Shown: positions 7,323 through 30,841 of the stretch, piece after piece
Numbering within the stretch: the first letter of the stretch is position 1
How the letters are laid out: the number at the start of each line of letters is the position of its first letter
NCBI GenBank assembly: GCA_020692235.1
Contig: JAIMKU010000003.1
Coordinates: 358-64,357, forward strand
Direction: 5' to 3'
DNA length: 64,000 nucleotides
Source: Hydrogenophilus sp.
GTDB taxonomy: Bacteria > Pseudomonadota > Gammaproteobacteria > Burkholderiales > Thiobacillaceae
Position numbers and translations under genes: made by a program
Notes under the pieces: generated by a model
Databases searched by the model: none
What the model was told of the DNA's origin: nothing
Seen by the model: the letters and a program-made list of their open reading frames with translations, nothing else

Positions 7323-9548
7323 TTAACCGATAGACGCCAAGGCCGCATTGAAGGTTGCGCTGGGACGCATGGCCTTGGCCGTTTTATCGACATCCGGCAG
7401 ATAGTAGCCGCCCATGTCCACCGGTTTCCCCTGCGCCGCCGCCAGCTCGGCCATGATCTTGGCCTCGTTGCTTTCCAGTGTCTTGGCCAGCGGTGCGAAA
7501 TGCGCCTGCAACTCCTTGTCCTTGGTCTGCGCGGCTAGCGCCTGCGCCCAGTACAGGGTGAGGTAGAAATGACTACCGCGGTTATCCAGTTCGCCGACAT
7601 TGCGCAGTGGCGACTTGTTGTTGTTCAGGATTTTGCCGCTGGCCTGATCGAGCGCCTCGGCCAGTATCTGGGCCTTGGCGTTGCCGAATTTCTGGCTCAG
7701 GTGTTCCAGCGACACCCCCAGCGCCAGGTATTCGCCCAGCGAATCCCAACGTAAATGTCCTTCTTCGATAAACTGTTGGGCATGCTTGGGCGCGGTACCG
7801 CCGGCGCCGGTCTCGAACATCCCGCCGCCCTTCATGAGCGGCACAATCGACAGCACCTTCGAACTGGAACCGAGTTCAAGGATCGGAAACAGGTCAGTGA
7901 GATAGTCGCGCATCACGTTACCGGTGACCGAAATCGTGTCTTTACCAGCCCTGATGCGCGCCAGTGAAAACCGTATGGCCTCCTCGGGCGACATGATCCG
8001 GATATCCAAGCCGCCGGTGTCGTGATCCTTCAGGTAGCGCTCCACCTTCTTGATGATCTCGGCGTCATGCGCCCGGTTCCGGTCGAGCCAGAACACGGCT
8101 GGCGTCCCGGTGAGCCTTGCCCGGCCGACGGCCAGCTTGACCCAATCCTGGATCGGCGCGTCTTTTGCCTGGCACATGCGGAAGATGTCTCCTTCTTCCA
8201 CCTTCTGCTCCAGCAGCGTCTTGCCCGAGGCATCGACGGCGCGGACGATGCCAGTGCCGGAAATCTCGAAGGTCTTGTCGTGGGATCCGTATTCCTCGGC
8301 CTTCTGCGCCATCAGGCCGACGTTGGGGACGCTACCCATGGTCTTCGGATCCAATGCGCCATGCTTCTTGCAGTCGGCAATGGTTTCCTGGTAGATGCCG
8401 GCATAGCAGCGGTCGGGAATCAGTGCCTTGGTGTCGTGCAGCTTGCCGTCCGGACCCCACATCTTGCCCGACTCTCGAATCATGGCGGACATGGAGGCAT
8501 CGACGATCACGCTGTTGGGCACATGCAGATTGGTGATGCCCTTGTCCAGATTCACCATCGCCAATTCCGGCTGGGTCTTGTAGCAGGCCTGAATATCGGC
8601 CTCGATCCCGGCGCGCTGGGCGTCCGGCAGCCCGGCGATCTTCGCGTAGATATCGCCCAGGCCGTTGTTGGGGTTGATGCCTAGTTGCTTGAACAGGTCG
8701 GCATGTTTGGTGAAGACGTCCTTGAAGTAGATCGCAACGGCGTGGCCGAACATGATGGGGTCAGAAATCTTCATCATGGTGGCCTTGAGGTGCAGCGACA
8801 GCAGTACGCCCTGTCGCTTCGCATCCTGCATCTGCTGCTCGTAAAACGCACGCAGGGCGCGACGGCTCATGACACTGGCATCGATGATCTCGCCCGCCTT
8901 GAGCTCGGTCTTTTCCTTGAGCACCGTGACCTTGCCGTCCGATCCGACAAACTCGATCCGCATATTGCCGGCATCGGCTACGGTGACCGATTTTTCGCTG
9001 CCGTAGAAATCATCGGCATTCATGTGCGCCACATGGGTCTTCGAGTCGGCGCTCCAGGCCCCCATCCGGTGCGGATTATTTCTCGCATACTGCTTGACTG
9101 AAGCGGCCGCCCGGCGGTCCGAGTTACCTTGCCGCAGCACCGGGTTCACGGCGCTGCCGAGCACCTTGCCGTAGCGTGTCCGGATCGTCTTCTCGGCATC
9201 GGTTTTCGGCTCTTCCGGGTAATCCGGCACGGCATAGCCTTTCGACTGCAATTCCTTGATGGCGGCCTTCAACTGGGGCAAGGATGCGCTGATATTGGGC
9301 ATCTTGATGATATTGGCGTCCGGCTGATCGGTCAGTGCGCCCAATGCCGCCAGCCCGTCCGGAATTCGCTGGCTCTCGGTCAGGTTCTCGGGAAAATTGG
9401 CAATGATCCGGCCGGCCAGGGAAATATTCCTGGTTTCGATGTGAATGCCGGCCACCTTGGTAAAGGCCTCGACAATAGGGAGAAATGAGTACGTCGCCAA
9501 CCCTGGCGCTTCATCGACTCTGGTCCAATATATCGTTGCTGTGGTCAT
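7323..9548 (-). CDS. icd: Monomeric NADP-dependent isocitrate dehydrogenase
   Basis: 741 aa; [52 protein letters not shown]. Confidence 0.96.
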
Positions 9549-9582
9549 GATCTTTTCCTGTTCAATCGAGCATTACTGGAGG

Positions 9583-28722: not shown

Positions 28723-28828
28723 AAAAAAAATTAAATTACCCTTCATGGCCATACCAATTATCGTTGTCGTTTAGCGATGCCATCGCGATCGCATCGAATA
28801 TTTCCACCTTGCCGACTAGGAGACCTTC

Positions 28829-30841
28829 ATGGCCAAAGCCCCCGTTCGAGTCGCCGTAACTGGCGCCGCTGGGCAGATCGGTTATGCGCTGCTGCCTCGC
28901 ATTGCCAGCGGCGAAATGCTCGGCAAGGATCAGCCCATCATTCTGCAATTGCTCGAATTGCCCATGGACAAGGCGCAAAAGGCATTGAAGGGCATGATGA
29001 TGGAGCTGGAGGATTGCGCCTTTCCGCTCTTGATCGACATGATCGGCACCTCGGACCCCATGGTTGCCTTCAGGGATGCCCAACAAGCCTTGCTGGTCGG
29101 CGCCAAGCCGCGCGGCGCCGGCATGGAACGCAAGGATCTGCTGCTGGAAAACCCCAAGATTTTCATTGAACAAGGCAAGGCCATTGATCTGGTTGCCTCC
29201 CGCGACGTCAAGGTGGTGGTGCTCGGCAACCCATCCAATACCAACGCCCTCGTCACCATGAACGCGGCCAGGAGTCTGCCCAGAACCAGCTTCACCTCGT
29301 TGATGCGGTTGGACCACAATCGCGCCGCCGGCAAACTCGCGCAGCGCCTGGGCAAGCCGATCACCAGCATCGAAAATATGGTGGTGTGGGGCAATCACTC
29401 GCCCGCCATGTATCCGGACATCCGCTTTGCCACTATCGACGGCAAACATCCCCGTGAACTGCTGAACGAGGAAGACTGGTACCGGAGTGAATTCATCGAC
29501 GAGATTGGCAAACGCGGCGCCGCCATCATCGACGTCCGTGGCCTATCCTCCGCCGCCTCCGCAGCAGTCGCGGTCATCGACCATATGCGTGACTGGAACC
29601 TGGGGTCCAACGGCCACTGGGTCACCATGGGCGTCGTCTCCGACGGCTCCTACGGTATCCCGGTGGGCATGATCTACGGTTTTCCCTGCACCACCGCCAA
29701 CGGCAAGTGGGAGATCGTCAAGAACCTGGAAATCGACGCCTTCTCGCGCACCAAAATGGACGCCTCGCTGAAAGAACTGCAAGAGGAATACATGATCGCG
29801 TCGAGTATCTTTGCGCCCGAAATCGCCGCGCAAAACGTCAAAGACCTGCTTCACCCAACCGACGTGCTCTACGCCGGTGGCCGCCCTTCGCCGCTGCTGG
29901 CTGCCTGCGAACACTATGCCGGCAGCGAGAAGCTACTTAGAAAAGCGCTCAAGATTCAAACCGAGCTACTGACCAACGAGCAGCCAGTCTTCGACATCAC
30001 CGCCGATTGTGAGGACGGCGCCCCCGCCGGCAAGGAACGGGAACACGCGGTCATGATCGCCGATCTGATCCTGTCCGACGACAATCGTTATGACCGCGTC
30101 GGCGTGCGCATCCACGATGTCGACCATCCGCACTGGCGCGACGAGTTGGAGATCATCATCGGCCGGGCCGGTCAGCGCGTGGCCTACATCGGCCTGTCCA
30201 AGCCGGAAAACGCCGACGACGTCCAAACCCAGATCAGCGCGCTCAATGAGCTAAGGGACCAATACGGCATTACCCGCGAGATACCCGTTCACGTCCTGAT
30301 CGAGACCCCGGGGGCGCTCCATGAAGTGTGGCAAATCGCCGGCCTACCGCATATCGAGGTCCTCAATTTCGGCATCATGGACTTCGTTTCCGAGCATCAC
30401 GGCGCCATTCCCGCCGCCGCCATGAGCTCGCCCGGCCAATTCAGCCACTCGCTTATCGTCCGCGCCAAGAGCGAGATCGTCGCCGCCGCACTGGCTCACG
30501 GCATCGTACCCAGCCACAACATCACCACCGAGATACGCGACCTCAACGTGGTGCGGGAAGATGCTCGCCGCGCCCGAATGGAGTTCGGCTTCCTGCGCAT
30601 GTGGAGCATCCATCCGAACCAGATACTGCCCATCGTCGAAGCCATGCAGCCGAACTTTGCCGAAGTCAACGAGGCCATCACCCTACTGATCGCCGCCCAA
30701 AACACCGCCTGGGGGCCAATCCAATGGGAAGGCAAGCTGCACGATCGTGCCTCCTACCGCTACTACTGGGAGCTACTACAACGCGCCCGCGCAACCGGGA
30801 TGGACATCCCGGCGGAGGTCGTCCAGCGTTTCTTTGCCTGA
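28829..30841 (+). CDS. mdh: Fusion of malate dehydrogenase and an HpcH/HpaI-CitE-family CoA-ester lyase
   Basis: 670 aa uninterrupted ORF. MDH half: [30 protein letters not shown]. Lyase half from about aa 335: [33 protein letters not shown]. Confidence 0.88.

What the first reader, a model, noticed from the sequence alone, without database searches (positions are those of the whole stretch)
7323..30841. Near-complete reverse-TCA carbon-fixation locus in a Betaproteobacteria-like sulfur oxidiser
Seen: aclBA, kor (four subunits), soluble fumarate reductase, aconitase, monomeric IDH and mdh are clustered in 23.5 kb, with a class I fumarase ~7 kb away and sat-aprBA ~20 kb away. Established: ATP-citrate lyase with 2-oxoglutarate:ferredoxin oxidoreductase is the rTCA signature, and a similar cluster with hdr/flx is known from gammaproteobacterial tubeworm symbionts and Magnetococcus-type bacteria. 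Thiobacillus/Sulfuricella-like betaproteobacteria are regarded as Calvin-cycle autotrophs. Inference: this may be a horizontally acquired rTCA module in a lineage not known to use it. Pyruvate synthase and succinyl-CoA synthetase are not in this window.
Basis: partly seen in the sequence, partly recalled or inferred. Interest (0 to 1): 0.9.

Follow-up and report, generated by a model that had tools for sequence, protein, structure and literature searches.

The report
Reverse-TCA gene cluster in aquifer Betaproteobacteria
A groundwater sulfur-oxidising bacterium related to Thiobacillus carries, as a long-settled part of its chromosome, the same unusual carbon-fixation (reverse TCA) gene cluster first described in tubeworm symbionts, and dozens of related iron- and sulfur-oxidiser genomes carry it too without this having been noticed.

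Summary
Nineteen co-directional genes (window 7323-28531, minus strand) encode monomeric IDH, an Aquifex-type aconitase, a 'type II' ATP-citrate lyase (AclA 900 aa, AclB), FlxABCD-HdrA, four-subunit KorABCD, HdrBC-like proteins, rubrerythrin and TfrAB-like fumarate reductase. A divergent mdh follows. A class I fumarase is cut by the window's left edge, and sat-aprBA lies 20.6 kb to the right.

This is the gene set published for tubeworm symbionts and Thioflavicoccus mobilis (Rubin-Blum 2019), so it is a known kind of system. The host is new for it: an uncultured Thiobacillaceae-like aquifer betaproteobacterium.

It is neither a chimera nor a recent island. Independent per-run assemblies span both junctions without a mismatch. 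Codon usage matches the flanks. Relatives at 84-95% identity keep the same order. AclA forms one clade across Gallionellaceae, Sulfuricellaceae and 'Hydrogenophilales' MAGs.

The lineage claim holds for the searchable literature. No paper found there links type II ACL to these families, and a 2026 preprint states that Ferrigenium straubiae lacks ACL although its chromosome encodes aclBA.

Direction of flux and the presence of por, sucCD and RuBisCO could not be tested. A lineage-specific fusion of MDH to a CitE-like lyase remains unexplained.

The parts
1..463 (-). 5' part (first 154 codons) of a class I fumarase gene, cut by the window edge
   Evidence: 100% identical to the start of a 504-aa protein with Pfam Fumerase + Fumerase_C on sibling contig L165.
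7323..9548 (-). idh, monomeric NADP-isocitrate dehydrogenase (741 aa)
   Evidence: TIGR00178, 1325 bits (cut-off 950).
9583..11523 (-). acn, aconitase, 646 aa
   Evidence: NF005558 PRK07229, 683 bits (cut-off 612), and TIGR01342. I recall TIGR01342 as the Aquifex-type putative aconitase model. Gene call.
11570..14272 (-). aclA, large subunit of 'type II' ATP-citrate lyase (900 aa). N-terminal part is like succinyl-CoA synthetase alpha / citryl-CoA synthetase small subunit, with GHAG His273. C-terminal part is like citrate synthase / citryl-CoA lyase.
   Evidence: succinyl-CoA ligase alpha model at residues 25-300; citryl-CoA lyase model at 626-890. (best PDB match 6hxq_A, citryl-CoA synthetase). 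(Foldseek matches to ACL alpha subunits, citrate synthases and citryl-CoA lyase 6hxp). (motifs).
14360..15640 (-). aclB, small subunit of type II ACL (426 aa; ATP-grasp plus citrate-binding domain)
   Evidence: Pfam Citrate_bind, 63.5 bits (cut-off 26.8), and ATP-grasp_2; best PDB match 6hxq_B, then ACL 6hxi_A.
15741..16565 (-). flxA-like NAD(P)H/FAD-binding subunit (274 aa)
   Evidence: matches the gamma subunits of cytochrome-c3 hydrogenase and sulfhydrogenase and AsrB. NAD_binding_1.
16555..17589 (-). flxB-like iron-sulfur subunit (344 aa)
   Evidence: sulfhydrogenase beta / AsrA-like, Fer4_22. Gene call.
17594..18625 (-). flxC-like 4Fe-4S protein (343 aa)
   Evidence: Fer4 dicluster domains.
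18622..19053 (-). flxD / MvhD-like subunit (143 aa)
   Evidence: matches the C-terminal MvhD-like part of HdrA2, and VhuD. PF02662 FlpD.
19068..21017 (-). hdrA, flavin- and FeS-containing heterodisulfide-reductase A-like subunit (649 aa)
   Evidence: NF040770 HdrA2, 797 bits over positions 1-640 of a 777-position model (below the curated cut-off of 1100; the missing MvhD-like part is encoded separately by flxD).
21014..21577 (-). korG, gamma subunit of 2-oxoacid:ferredoxin oxidoreductase
   Evidence: NF006323, 192 bits; OorC-like.
21589..22752 (-). korB, TPP-binding beta subunit, with a C-terminal tail of about 100 aa rich in Ala and Lys
   Evidence: best match is the 2-oxoglutarate:ferredoxin oxidoreductase beta model PRK09628; tail sequence.
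22749..23915 (-). korA, alpha subunit
   Evidence: NF006412, 546 bits (cut-off 411).
23912..24175 (-). korD, delta (ferredoxin-like, 2x[4Fe-4S]) subunit, 87 aa
   Evidence: called gene, Fer4 families. (translation shows two CxxCxxCxxxCP motifs).
24186..25064 (-). hdrB-like CCG-domain protein (292 aa); also resembles SdhE of type E fumarate reductases
   Evidence: TIGR03288, 180 bits; NF042965 SdhE, 166 bits. PF02754 CCG.
25084..25554 (-). hdrC-like 4Fe-4S protein
   Evidence: TIGR03290.
25512..26048 (-). rubrerythrin-like protein (true start near residue 57 of the 235-aa ORF)
   Evidence: Pfam Rubrerythrin; only residues 57-235 are kept in frame in relatives.
26062..27777 (-). tfrA-like fumarate reductase flavoprotein (571 aa)
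   Evidence: best match NF004900, fumarate reductase (CoM/CoB) TfrA, E = 7e-101.
27791..28531 (-). tfrB-like 2Fe-2S/4Fe-4S subunit (246 aa)
   Evidence: TfrB N-terminal part, Fer2, Fer4.
28532..28828 (.). Divergent intergenic region with back-to-back sigma-70-like promoter matches (28701-28672 on the minus strand, 28695-28722 on the plus strand)
   Evidence: Both score 10 of 12 and are the only two matches in 8.2 kb. Consensus matches only.
28829..30841 (+). mdh fused in frame to a CitE/HpcH-like lyase domain (670 aa; MDH 1-325, lyase about 340-670)
   Evidence: the lyase domain matches PDB 3qqw with E = 4e-130; six of the seven members of its 90%-identity cluster are 670 aa (the seventh, 424 aa, is on a short contig); fused in 3 of 52 metagenome loci.

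Best explanation
The locus is a chromosomal, long-resident copy of the 'type II ACL' reverse-TCA gene cluster, in an uncultured Thiobacillaceae-like aquifer sulfur oxidiser.

Shown by sequence. One 21-kb co-directional gene array encodes:
- a citrate-cleaving enzyme built like citryl-CoA synthetase fused to a citrate-synthase-like lyase (AclBA);
- aconitase and monomeric IDH;
- a four-subunit 2-oxoacid:ferredoxin oxidoreductase (KorABCD);
- a TfrAB-like fumarate reductase without classical membrane-anchor genes;
- a complete FlxABCD-HdrA(BC) set and a rubrerythrin.
MDH is transcribed divergently, and a class I fumarase lies 7 kb away.

Inferred mechanism.
1. The carbon flow is oxaloacetate, malate (MDH), fumarate (FumA), succinate (Tfr), then succinyl-CoA (by a SucCD encoded elsewhere).
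2. It continues to 2-oxoglutarate (Kor, with reduced ferredoxin and CO2), isocitrate (IDH, with CO2) and citrate (Acn).
3. Citrate is split into acetyl-CoA and oxaloacetate by AclAB at the cost of ATP.
4. The interleaved Flx-Hdr proteins most likely oxidise NADH and bifurcate its electrons.
5. The downhill branch would go through the HdrBC-like proteins and TfrAB to fumarate.
6. The uphill branch would go to the ferredoxin that drives Kor.
7. The two redox steps of the cycle would then pay for each other. Rubin-Blum et al. proposed this idea for the gammaproteobacterial clusters.
8. Rubrerythrin would protect the oxygen-sensitive FeS enzymes.

The cluster was not recently imported. It is shared by a coherent clade of Gallionellaceae, Sulfuricellaceae and 'Hydrogenophilales'-labelled groundwater MAGs. 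It probably gives these presumed Calvin-cycle autotrophs a second, low-oxygen carbon-fixation route.
For: - Gene identities.
- Same gene set as the published cluster (aclAB type II, acn, idh, mdh, korABCD, tfrAB, flxABCD-hdrABC, rbr).
- AclA has the GHAG phosphohistidine loop (His273) and citrate-synthase-like motifs NHPVF and DDH. AclB has the ACL citrate-binding domain. Fold matches go to citryl-CoA synthetase, ACL alpha subunits, citrate synthases and citryl-CoA lyase.
- In heterotrophs the homologous aclBA pair sits next to a 2-hydroxycarboxylate (CitS-type) transporter. This supports citrate as the family's substrate.
- Synteny: idh-acn-aclA-aclB-flxABCD-hdrA-korGBAD is kept in more than 15 Gallionellaceae, Sideroxydans, Sulfuricellaceae and 'Hydrogenophilales' MAGs at 67-97% protein identity. 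It is also kept in Rhodocyclaceae, in Alphaproteobacteria and in Blastochloris sulfoviridis.
- Both junctions are spanned by mismatch-free contigs from a single-run assembly with even depth of about 8x.
- Codon usage equals that of the flanks.
- Aquifer metatranscriptome assemblies contain contigs 85-95% identical over the stretch laid on them (window 7300-27299, idh to tfrA).
Against: - No pyruvate synthase, succinyl-CoA synthetase or PEP/pyruvate carboxylase is in the window or within 10 kb beyond it.
- The rest of the genome could not be searched. Completeness of the cycle and co-occurrence with RuBisCO are unknown.
- According to the papers read, type II ACL is still only postulated from genes, and I know of no characterisation of the purified enzyme. 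The C-terminal lyase assignment rests on a sub-threshold NCBIfam hit (28.8 bits against a cut-off of 212) and on a low-confidence model (mean pLDDT 58).
- The substrate of Kor (2-oxoglutarate or pyruvate) is not fixed by sequence. KorB and KorG score below the equivalog cut-offs.
- The HdrB-like protein scores almost as well against SdhE of quinol-linked type E fumarate reductases (166 against 180 bits). The bifurcation wiring is therefore inference.
- All the TCA enzymes here are reversible in principle.
- The metatranscriptome evidence is contig presence only, from relatives, and may include DNA.
Confidence: 0.65

Rival explanations
1. The cluster is real and native, but it does not run a full autotrophic cycle. 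It works as a branched or bidirectional TCA in a Calvin-cycle autotroph. Under low oxygen it would make 2-oxoglutarate and succinyl-CoA reductively for biosynthesis. Alternatively it would oxidise acetyl-CoA or organic acids, with Kor replacing 2-oxoglutarate dehydrogenase and Flx-Hdr confurcating electrons to NAD+.
For: - por and sucCD are absent from the window and its surroundings.
- The F. straubiae KS transcriptome authors also concluded that a linear reductive branch is possible.
- Bulk bacterial lipid isotope values in a CO2-rich aquifer fit the Calvin cycle for Gallionella-type organisms.
- All the enzymes are reversible in principle.
Against: - An ATP-consuming citrate lyase has no obvious role in a biosynthetic horseshoe or in an oxidative cycle.
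- It is co-transcribed in orientation with kor, tfr and flx-hdr, and this arrangement is conserved across classes.
- In F. straubiae KS the aclBA-acn-idh genes sit next to sucD.
Confidence: 0.22
2. The AclAB-like pair is a catabolic citrate (or other 2-hydroxy-acid) thiokinase-lyase, as in heterotrophic Paraburkholderia and Methylobacterium. Its neighbourhood with kor and tfr genes says nothing about CO2 fixation.
For: More than 500 species genomes carry a 900-aa AclA homologue, many of them heterotrophs. There it is followed by a 2HCT transporter and a sensor/sigma-54 regulator pair, with no kor or tfr.
Against: - The window has no transporter or regulator of that kind next to aclBA.
- The heterotroph proteins form a separate clade at 60-65% identity.
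- The window's clade is always linked to acn and idh, and usually to flx-hdr-kor.
Confidence: 0.06
3. The locus is a recently transferred genomic island or an assembly or binning chimera joined to betaproteobacterial housekeeping genes.
For: - A tacA-tacT toxin-antitoxin pair sits at the right edge.
- An IS1595 transposase and yefM-yoeB lie just beyond the fumarase on the sibling contig.
- The AclA tree mixes Alpha-, Beta- and Gammaproteobacteria at depth.
Against: - Run X1 contigs cover window 465-12778 and 16206-35346 with 0 differences and flat depth.
- The same left flank (glnD, TPR protein, small ORF, idh) is found in a MAG with 95% AclA identity.
- The same right flank (mdh fusion, pdxJ, recO) is found in L082 without the toxin-antitoxin pair.
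- GC3 and RSCU match the flanks.
Confidence: 0.03

Closest known systems
rTCA gene cluster of vestimentiferan tubeworm symbionts (Ca. Endoriftia persephone, Escarpia laminata symbiont), Thioflavicoccus mobilis and a Rifle gammaproteobacterial MAG (Rubin-Blum, Dubilier & Kleiner 2019, PMC6315080)
   Same: It has the same components: type II aclAB, acn, idh, mdh, four-subunit korABCD, tfrAB, flxABCD-hdrABC interspersed with kor and tfr, and rubrerythrin. The host is also a sulfur oxidiser.
   Different: - The host is a Thiobacillaceae-like betaproteobacterium from an aquifer, not a member of the Chromatiaceae or the Endoriftia group.
- No pntAB or rnf genes are in or next to the cluster.
- mdh is divergently transcribed and fused to a CitE-like domain.
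- Sequence identity to the gammaproteobacterial clusters could not be measured, because none was fetched. The nearest Gammaproteobacteria seen, Achromatium, have 67% AclA identity.
Postulated type II ATP-citrate lyase of Magnetococcus marinus MC-1 (Mmc1_3638/3639; Hugler & Sievert 2011, as cited in PMC6783814)
   Same: It is a two-subunit enzyme. The large subunit joins a succinyl-CoA-synthetase-alpha-like part to a citrate-synthase-like part. Standard pipelines annotate it as 'CoA-binding protein' or 'succinyl-CoA synthetase alpha'.
   Different: It was not compared directly here. In MC-1, citrate cleavage activity was measured in cells, which has not been done for any betaproteobacterial carrier.
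Citryl-CoA synthetase (CcsAB) plus citryl-CoA lyase of Hydrogenobacter thermophilus (PDB 6hxq, 6hxp)
   Same: These are the closest solved structures to AclB and to the AclA N-terminal part (E = 4e-31 and 5e-33, better than Chlorobium ACL). The citryl-CoA lyase fold matches the AclA C-terminal part (TM-score 0.60 normalised to the target).
   Different: In Hydrogenobacter the synthetase and the lyase are separate proteins. Here they are fused, and the lyase part aligns over the length of a full citrate synthase (about 500 columns).
Canonical (type I) ATP-citrate lyase AclAB of Chlorobium limicola, Campylobacterota and Nitrospira (PDB 6hxj)
   Same: Same overall domain order and same presumed reaction. 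The citrate-binding domain is detected in AclB.
   Different: - AclA is about 300 aa longer (900 against about 610 aa).
- Sequence similarity is low (E = 2e-11 over the ligase part only).
- The NCBIfam and Pfam ACL-specific models are not passed.
FlxABCD-HdrABC NADH dehydrogenase/heterodisulfide reductase of Desulfovibrio vulgaris (from my own knowledge; named in PMC6315080)
   Same: Same subunit set by domain content: a FlxA FAD/NAD(P)H protein, FlxB and FlxC iron-sulfur proteins, FlxD (MvhD-like), HdrA, HdrB (CCG domains) and HdrC.
   Different: Here hdrBC are separated from hdrA by korGBAD and lie next to tfrAB. This suggests fumarate rather than a DsrC-type disulfide as the high-potential acceptor.
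Thiol:fumarate reductase TfrAB of Methanothermobacter
   Same: TfrA is the best-scoring NCBIfam model for the flavoprotein. No SdhC/D-type anchor genes are present.
   Different: The methanogen TfrB carries the FeS and CCG domains in one protein. Here they are split into a TfrB-like, an HdrC-like and an HdrB-like protein. CoM/CoB thiols are not expected in a betaproteobacterium.

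Membership tests
Type II ACL reverse-TCA gene cluster (Rubin-Blum 2019) | Type II aclA (about 900 aa) and aclB adjacent | tested here: met
   AclA 900 aa, AclB 426 aa, separated by 87 bp.
Type II ACL reverse-TCA gene cluster (Rubin-Blum 2019) | Four-subunit korABCD in the cluster | tested here: met
   korG, korB, korA and korD are contiguous at 21014-24175.
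Type II ACL reverse-TCA gene cluster (Rubin-Blum 2019) | tfrAB-like fumarate reductase in the cluster | tested here: met
   best model TfrA (E = 7e-101); TfrB-like FeS protein adjacent.
Type II ACL reverse-TCA gene cluster (Rubin-Blum 2019) | flxABCD-hdrABC interspersed with kor and tfr | tested here: met
   order is flxA-B-C-D-hdrA | korGBAD | hdrB-hdrC-rbr | tfrAB.
Type II ACL reverse-TCA gene cluster (Rubin-Blum 2019) | acn, idh and mdh accompany aclAB | tested here: met
   mdh is on the opposite strand and is fused to a CitE-like domain.
Type II ACL reverse-TCA gene cluster (Rubin-Blum 2019) | pntAB and rnf genes integrated in the cluster | tested here: not met
   None among the ORFs annotated over the whole 64 kb window, or in the 10 kb beyond each end.
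Type II ACL reverse-TCA gene cluster (Rubin-Blum 2019) | Co-occurrence with RuBisCO in the same genome | not testable with these tools
   The rest of the genome could not be queried.
ATP-citrate lyase (functional family) | Beta-type subunit with an ATP-grasp and the ACL citrate-binding domain | tested here: met
   PF16114 Citrate_bind, 63.5 bits (cut-off 26.8); PF08442, 47 bits.
ATP-citrate lyase (functional family) | Alpha-type subunit with a CoA-binding domain and a phosphohistidine loop (GHAG) | tested here: met
   (CoA_binding, Succ_CoA_lig). GHAG at 272-275; the His (H273) is invariant in 17 homologues.
ATP-citrate lyase (functional family) | C-terminal module like citrate synthase / citryl-CoA lyase | tested here: inconclusive
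   - The NCBIfam citryl-CoA lyase model gives 28.8 bits, far below its cut-off of 212.
- PF00285 is precomputed on a few homologues.
- Foldseek matches citrate synthases (TM-score 0.48-0.58 normalised to the target) and citryl-CoA lyase 6hxp (0.60), but the model has mean pLDDT 58.
ATP-citrate lyase (functional family) | ATP- and CoA-dependent cleavage of citrate | not testable with these tools
   This needs an enzyme assay. The papers read describe the enzyme as postulated.
Complete autotrophic rTCA cycle | Pyruvate:ferredoxin oxidoreductase | tested here: not met
   Not in the window or within 10 kb beyond it. The rest of the genome is untested. The only other TPP enzyme (58617-60365) has acetolactate-synthase-type domains.
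Complete autotrophic rTCA cycle | Succinyl-CoA synthetase | tested here: not met
   Not in the window. In F. straubiae KS, sucD lies next to idh.
Complete autotrophic rTCA cycle | Fumarate hydratase | tested here: met
   Class I fumarase next to glnD, 6.9 kb from idh.
Betaproteobacteria / Thiobacillaceae (host) | Housekeeping proteins group with named members | tested here: inconclusive
   - The 90%-identity Era cluster includes a Parasulfuritortus sp. MAG (Thiobacillaceae) and 'Betaproteobacteria bacterium'.
- It also includes MAGs labelled Hydrogenophilales, which NCBI now places in the class Hydrogenophilia.
- No marker-gene tree was built. The planned LepA search could not be made.

The most novel reading that the evidence does not exclude
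Groundwater iron- and sulfur-oxidising Betaproteobacteria (Gallionellaceae, Sulfuricellaceae, Thiobacillaceae-like lineages) would be dual-pathway autotrophs. Besides the Calvin cycle, they would run a reverse TCA cycle under micro-oxic or nitrate-respiring conditions.

That cycle would be energised by a Flx-Hdr-Tfr-Kor assembly. The assembly would use NADH and bifurcate its electrons between fumarate (downhill) and the ferredoxin needed for 2-oxoglutarate synthesis (uphill).

The pathway would have been overlooked because the citrate lyase is annotated as 'CoA-binding protein'. In this lineage the native MDH has additionally fused to a CitE-like acyl-CoA lyase of unknown function, and that domain takes part in handling oxaloacetate, malate or acyl-CoA.
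Probability: 0.3. Interest if true: 0.8.

Novelty: new member of a known kind. Interest (0 to 1): 0.6.

Why it matters
If the cluster fixes CO2, several things follow.

- Carbon budgets for aquifers and iron- or sulfur-rich groundwater would need revising. Today they assign Gallionella and Thiobacillus-type organisms to the Calvin cycle and reserve the reverse TCA cycle for Sulfurimonas and Nitrospira. The Crystal Geyser lipid-isotope mass balance is an example (PMC7242380). The two pathways leave different isotope signatures and cost different amounts of ATP.
- Annotation pipelines and marker-gene surveys (aclB primers, KEGG modules) miss this enzyme. One concrete consequence was found here. 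A 2026 preprint builds a 'reversed oxidative TCA' hypothesis for Ferrigenium straubiae KS on the stated absence of ACL, while its chromosome encodes aclB-aclA-acn-idh followed closely by sucD.
- Two cultured carriers make the long-standing questions experimentally reachable. These are F. straubiae KS (an enrichment culture) and Blastochloris sulfoviridis DSM 729, whose locus holds the cluster from tfrAB to idh (the hdrB-like gene lies at the edge of the fetched DNA). The questions are whether type II ACL really cleaves citrate, and whether Flx-Hdr couples fumarate reduction to ferredoxin reduction.

Tried and rejected
- Chimeric contig. Rejected. Single-run Logan contigs span both junctions with 0 mismatches and flat depth.
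- Recent horizontal transfer. Rejected. There is no GC step. GC3 and codon usage are indistinguishable from the flanks. Flanks are conserved in relatives.
Fetching the sibling contig showed the gene is cut by the window's left edge.
- Host placement by a LepA homologue search, and a homologue search with the MDH fusion and its lyase domain. These could not be made. The first attempt timed out and the shared protein database was then switched off. I substituted exact-cluster look-up, the representative-library search and a metagenome scan.
- Looking up the assembly accession in papers. It returned only noise.
- The supplements of Rubin-Blum 2019 held as text contain no mention of Betaproteobacteria or Gallionella.
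- AlphaFold model of AclA from a 17-sequence alignment. It gave low confidence (mean pLDDT 58). I used it only for family-level fold matches.
- Idea that the CitE-like domain came in with the rTCA module. Weakened. An mdh followed by a citE-like gene is the common arrangement in ordinary TCA loci. However, one relative (L090) has a stand-alone citE-like gene divergent from tfrB without mdh.
- Rfam and tRNA searches of the high-depth element at 38.1 kb found nothing.

Full report
**What is there.**
ORF listing and family searches show a single co-directional array on the minus strand from 28531 down to 7323. The order is:
- tfrB-like, tfrA-like, rubrerythrin, hdrC-like, hdrB-like;
- korD, korA, korB, korG;
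- hdrA, flxD (MvhD-like), flxC, flxB, flxA;
- aclB, aclA, aconitase, monomeric IDH.

Most gene boundaries overlap or are separated by under 25 bp. The largest gaps are about 100 bp (flxA to aclB) and 87 bp (aclB to aclA).

korD (87 aa, two 4Fe-4S motifs) was not in my 100-aa ORF list. It is called on a sibling contig and is visible in the translation.

On the plus strand, 298 bp from tfrB, starts a 670-aa ORF. Its first 325 residues are a PRK05442-type malate dehydrogenase. Its last 330 residues are a CitE/HpcH-like lyase.

The intergenic region holds the only two sigma-70-like matches in 8 kb. They lie back to back, one facing each way (consensus matches only).

The class I fumarase I at first could not find is real. 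Window 463..1 encodes the first 154 residues of a 504-aa Fumerase/Fumerase_C protein, 100% identical to a sibling contig. The gene is cut by the window's edge.

sat-aprBA lie at 51447-55330. A flavocytochrome-c-sulfide-dehydrogenase-like gene follows just beyond the right end. This fits a sulfur oxidiser.

**Integrity and provenance.**
- Identical proteins are on NCBI assemblies GCA_017973955.1 and GCA_020692715.1 and in Logan assemblies of aquifer metagenomes.
- In run X1, one contig covers window 465-12778 and another covers 16206-35346, both with zero differences.
- Word depth is flat at about 8x across the flanks and the cluster.
- From 40 to 60 kb, contigs tile with overlaps at the same depth.

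**Host.**
- The 90%-identity cluster of the window's Era protein includes proteins from a MAG named Parasulfuritortus sp. (Thiobacillaceae, Nitrosomonadales, Betaproteobacteria).
- The same cluster holds proteins from 'Betaproteobacteria bacterium' and from Crystal-Geyser MAGs labelled Hydrogenophilales.
- The nearest species-representative genome for AclA (95%) and GlnD (90%) is 'Hydrogenophilales bacterium CG12_big_fil_rev_8_21_14_0_65_61_21'.
- NCBI now files that label under the class Hydrogenophilia. To my knowledge the label dates from when Thiobacillus was classified in that order.
- I conclude 'Thiobacillaceae-like betaproteobacterium' with moderate confidence. A marker-gene tree was not possible, because the planned LepA search failed when the protein database was switched off.

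**What the cluster is.**
The component list is the one published by Rubin-Blum, Dubilier and Kleiner (2019). Their list has type II aclAB, acn, idh, mdh, korABCD, tfrAB, flxABCD-hdrABC interspersed with kor and tfr, and rubrerythrin. They found it in tubeworm symbionts, Thioflavicoccus mobilis and a Rifle gammaproteobacterial MAG. pntAB and rnf, which they also found integrated, are absent here.

The citrate lyase is the divergent 'type II' form.
- AclB carries the ACL citrate-binding domain above Pfam's threshold.
- AclA has CoA-binding and ligase domains with the GHAG histidine loop, His273, invariant in 17 homologues.
- The closest solved structures to both parts are the two subunits of Hydrogenobacter citryl-CoA synthetase, ahead of Chlorobium ACL. 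This agrees with the published view that type II ACL sits next to CCS-CCL.
- The C-terminal 500 residues are only weakly recognisable by sequence.
- A low-confidence AlphaFold model (pLDDT 58) still finds ACL alpha subunits, citrate synthases and citryl-CoA lyase as fold matches.
- The enzyme is still described as postulated in the papers read.

**Distribution.**
A scan of one genome per species found at least 580 genomes encoding a relative of the 900-aa AclA. Among the best 80, three groups appear in gene content and in a neighbour-joining tree.

1. At 80% identity or more:
 - The window, two 'Hydrogenophilales' CG MAGs and many Gallionella, Sideroxydans, Sideroxyarcus, Sulfuricellaceae and Nitrosomonadales MAGs.
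 - The complete chromosome of Candidatus Ferrigenium straubiae KS.
 - Where enough flank was fetched, these carry idh-acn-aclA-aclB, and most also carry flxABCD-hdrA-korGBAD alongside.
2. At 66-72% identity:
 - Rhodocyclaceae, Sulfuritalea, Alphaproteobacteria (including cultured Blastochloris sulfoviridis DSM 729) and one MAG labelled Ignavibacteria have the same cluster including tfrAB.
 - Achromatium belongs to this AclA clade, but only aclAB was seen on its short contigs.
3. At 60-66% identity:
 - Heterotrophs (Paraburkholderia, Caballeronia, Microvirga, Methylobacterium, Thauera and others) and various MAGs have aclBA alone.
 - In the two heterotroph loci I annotated (Paraburkholderia, Methylobacterium), aclBA is followed by a 2-hydroxycarboxylate transporter, with a sigma-54 activator downstream and, in Paraburkholderia, a sensor kinase.

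Two consequences follow. The family very probably acts on citrate. And aclBA alone is not proof of autotrophy. The linkage to kor, tfr and flx-hdr is what marks the reductive cycle.

**Horizontal acquisition.**
There is no sign of recent transfer.
- There is no GC step.
- GC3 is 0.784 in the cluster against 0.787 in the flanks. Codon-usage correlation with the flanks is 0.984, against 0.975 between the two halves of the flanks.
- The left flank (glnD, TPR protein, small ORF) is conserved in the relative with 95% AclA identity.
- There GlnD is 90% identical and the cluster proteins 88-97%, apart from KorB (76%), whose tail varies.
- A metagenome contig at 95% has cluster, mdh fusion, pdxJ and recO directly adjacent. 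The tacA-tacT pair at 30942-31759 is therefore a strain-specific insertion, not an island border. Contigs of the X4 and X8 strains also break there.
- At depth, the AclA tree interleaves Alpha-, Beta- and Gammaproteobacteria. Old inter-class transfer is likely, as the 2019 paper argued for the Gammaproteobacteria.
- The mdh appears native. In 48 of 52 metagenome loci with both genes, mdh is followed by a separate citE-like gene, often with sdhA-like and acnA-like hits nearby.

**Is the lineage 'not known to use it'?**
- Within the searchable library, papers mentioning type II ACL concern tubeworm, clam and gutless-worm symbionts, Magnetococcales and a hot-spring planctomycete.
- Papers combining Gallionellaceae with rTCA do not report ACL in them.
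- The Crystal Geyser isotope study assigns the Calvin cycle to Gallionella and the rTCA cycle to Sulfurimonas.
- Yet NZ_CP194331.1 encodes intact aclB (83% identity), aclA (80%), acn (85%) and idh (76%), and a sucD gene a little further on. Source annotations call these proteins 'CoA-binding protein', 'succinyl-CoA synthetase alpha subunit' or 'hypothetical'.
- Subscription-only literature was not searchable, so earlier reports cannot be excluded.

**Expression.**
Three aquifer metatranscriptome assemblies contain contigs 85-95% identical covering every bin of the stretch laid on them, window 7300-27299, from idh to tfrA. This shows that related clusters are represented in RNA libraries. It is not quantitative and does not exclude DNA carry-over.

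**Mechanism.**
- Shown: the gene content and its conserved order.
- Inferred: the reductive direction of flow, and the idea taken from the 2019 paper that Flx-Hdr bifurcates NADH electrons.
- In that scheme, one branch goes to fumarate through the HdrBC-like proteins and TfrAB. The other goes to the ferredoxin used by Kor.
- Caveat 1: the HdrB-like protein scores nearly as well as SdhE of quinol-linked type E fumarate reductases.
- Caveat 2: the substrate of Kor is not fixed by sequence.
- Caveat 3: por and sucCD are not nearby.

**Unexplained.**
- The 670-aa MDH-lyase fusion is real. Six of the seven members of its 90%-identity cluster are 670 aa and the seventh is a fragment on a short contig. 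One member is seen on 61 contigs.
- It is confined to this clade. Only 3 of 52 metagenome loci are fused, at 82-96% identity. No two-domain protein appears among the top 150 of 1.84 billion representatives.
- The lyase domain is close to two structural-genomics proteins without assigned function: PDB 3qqw (E = 4e-130) and 3r4i.
- One relative has a stand-alone copy divergent from tfrB, without mdh.
- Its role is open. It could cleave malyl-, citramalyl- or citryl-CoA, or have malate-synthase-like activity.

**Verdict.**
The system is a known kind in a host lineage for which I found no earlier report. It is native, not newly imported. Function as a carbon-fixing cycle is plausible but untested.

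Noticed in passing
window 28829-30841 (+): Malate dehydrogenase is fused in frame to a CitE/HpcH-like lyase domain (670 aa). The fusion occurs only in close relatives (3 of 52 metagenome loci). Elsewhere mdh and the citE-like gene are separate neighbours. The lyase domain matches function-unknown PDB entries 3qqw and 3r4i.
   Followed up: yes
window 30942-31759 (+): A TacA antitoxin / GNAT TacT-like toxin pair lies between the mdh fusion and pdxJ. It is absent from the 95%-identical metagenome contig L082, and contigs of the related X4 and X8 strains break there. It is a strain-specific insertion.
   Followed up: yes
window 38104-38271 (between lepA and degP): A 168-bp palindromic element with perfect 19-bp terminal inverted repeats (CTAGGAGCCTGTCGGACTT). 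It folds into one long hairpin (-98 kcal/mol, z = -10.9). Contig word depth jumps from about 8-60x to 128-16,400x in four metagenomes, with discordant flanks. It looks like a very high-copy MITE-like repeat across the community. It has no Rfam or tRNA match and occurs once in the window.
   Followed up: partly
L012 (Candidatus Ferrigenium straubiae KS, NZ_CP194331.1 about 399.5-410.2 kb): The complete genome encodes aclB-aclA-acn-idh (83/80/85/76% identity to the window) and, a little further on, a sucD gene. A 2026 preprint on this organism states that ATP-citrate lyase is absent and invokes a reversed oxidative TCA cycle.
   Followed up: partly
L041 (Blastochloris sulfoviridis DSM 729, NZ_VWPL01000018.1): A cultured purple alphaproteobacterium carries the cluster (idh, aclAB, flxABCD, hdrA, korGBAD, hdrC, tfrAB; the 3' end of an hdrB-like gene lies at the locus edge) at 51-76% identity. 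It is a possible experimental model. I found no report of this.
   Followed up: no
L060 (Paraburkholderia fungorum) and L057 (Methylobacterium sp.): In heterotrophs the aclBA-like pair is followed by a 2-hydroxycarboxylate (CitS-type) transporter. A sigma-54 activator lies downstream, and Paraburkholderia also has a Cache-domain sensor kinase. This looks like an aerobic, ATP-dependent citrate-cleavage operon. Type II ACL genes alone do not indicate autotrophy.
   Followed up: partly
window 21589-21900 (3' part of korB): KorB ends in a tail of about 100 aa rich in alanine and lysine (AAKKPAAKKPAVKAAAKK...), reminiscent of histone-H1-like tails. The tail is the least conserved part of the protein in relatives.
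   Followed up: no
window 47803-49701: acrR is followed by a 311-aa fragment of an RND efflux permease (residues about 150-370 of about 1017) that overlaps the histidinol-phosphatase gene. It is a deletion remnant. Contigs of the related X4 strain diverge at 48506 and 49432.
   Followed up: partly
window 47790: The contigs of all four DNA runs laid on this stretch carry two extra bases (AT) after position 47790 relative to the window. This is a possible small assembly error or variant in the window sequence, between an unassigned ORF and acrR.
   Followed up: no
window 56894-58648 (-): A 584-aa ORF, called as a gene on sibling contigs, has no Pfam or NCBIfam match. It overlaps the start of a TPP-dependent acetolactate-synthase-like gene.
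   Followed up: no
L165 14461-16095 (just left of the window): An IS1595-family transposase and a yefM-yoeB toxin-antitoxin pair lie directly beyond the fumarase gene on the sibling contig.
   Followed up: no
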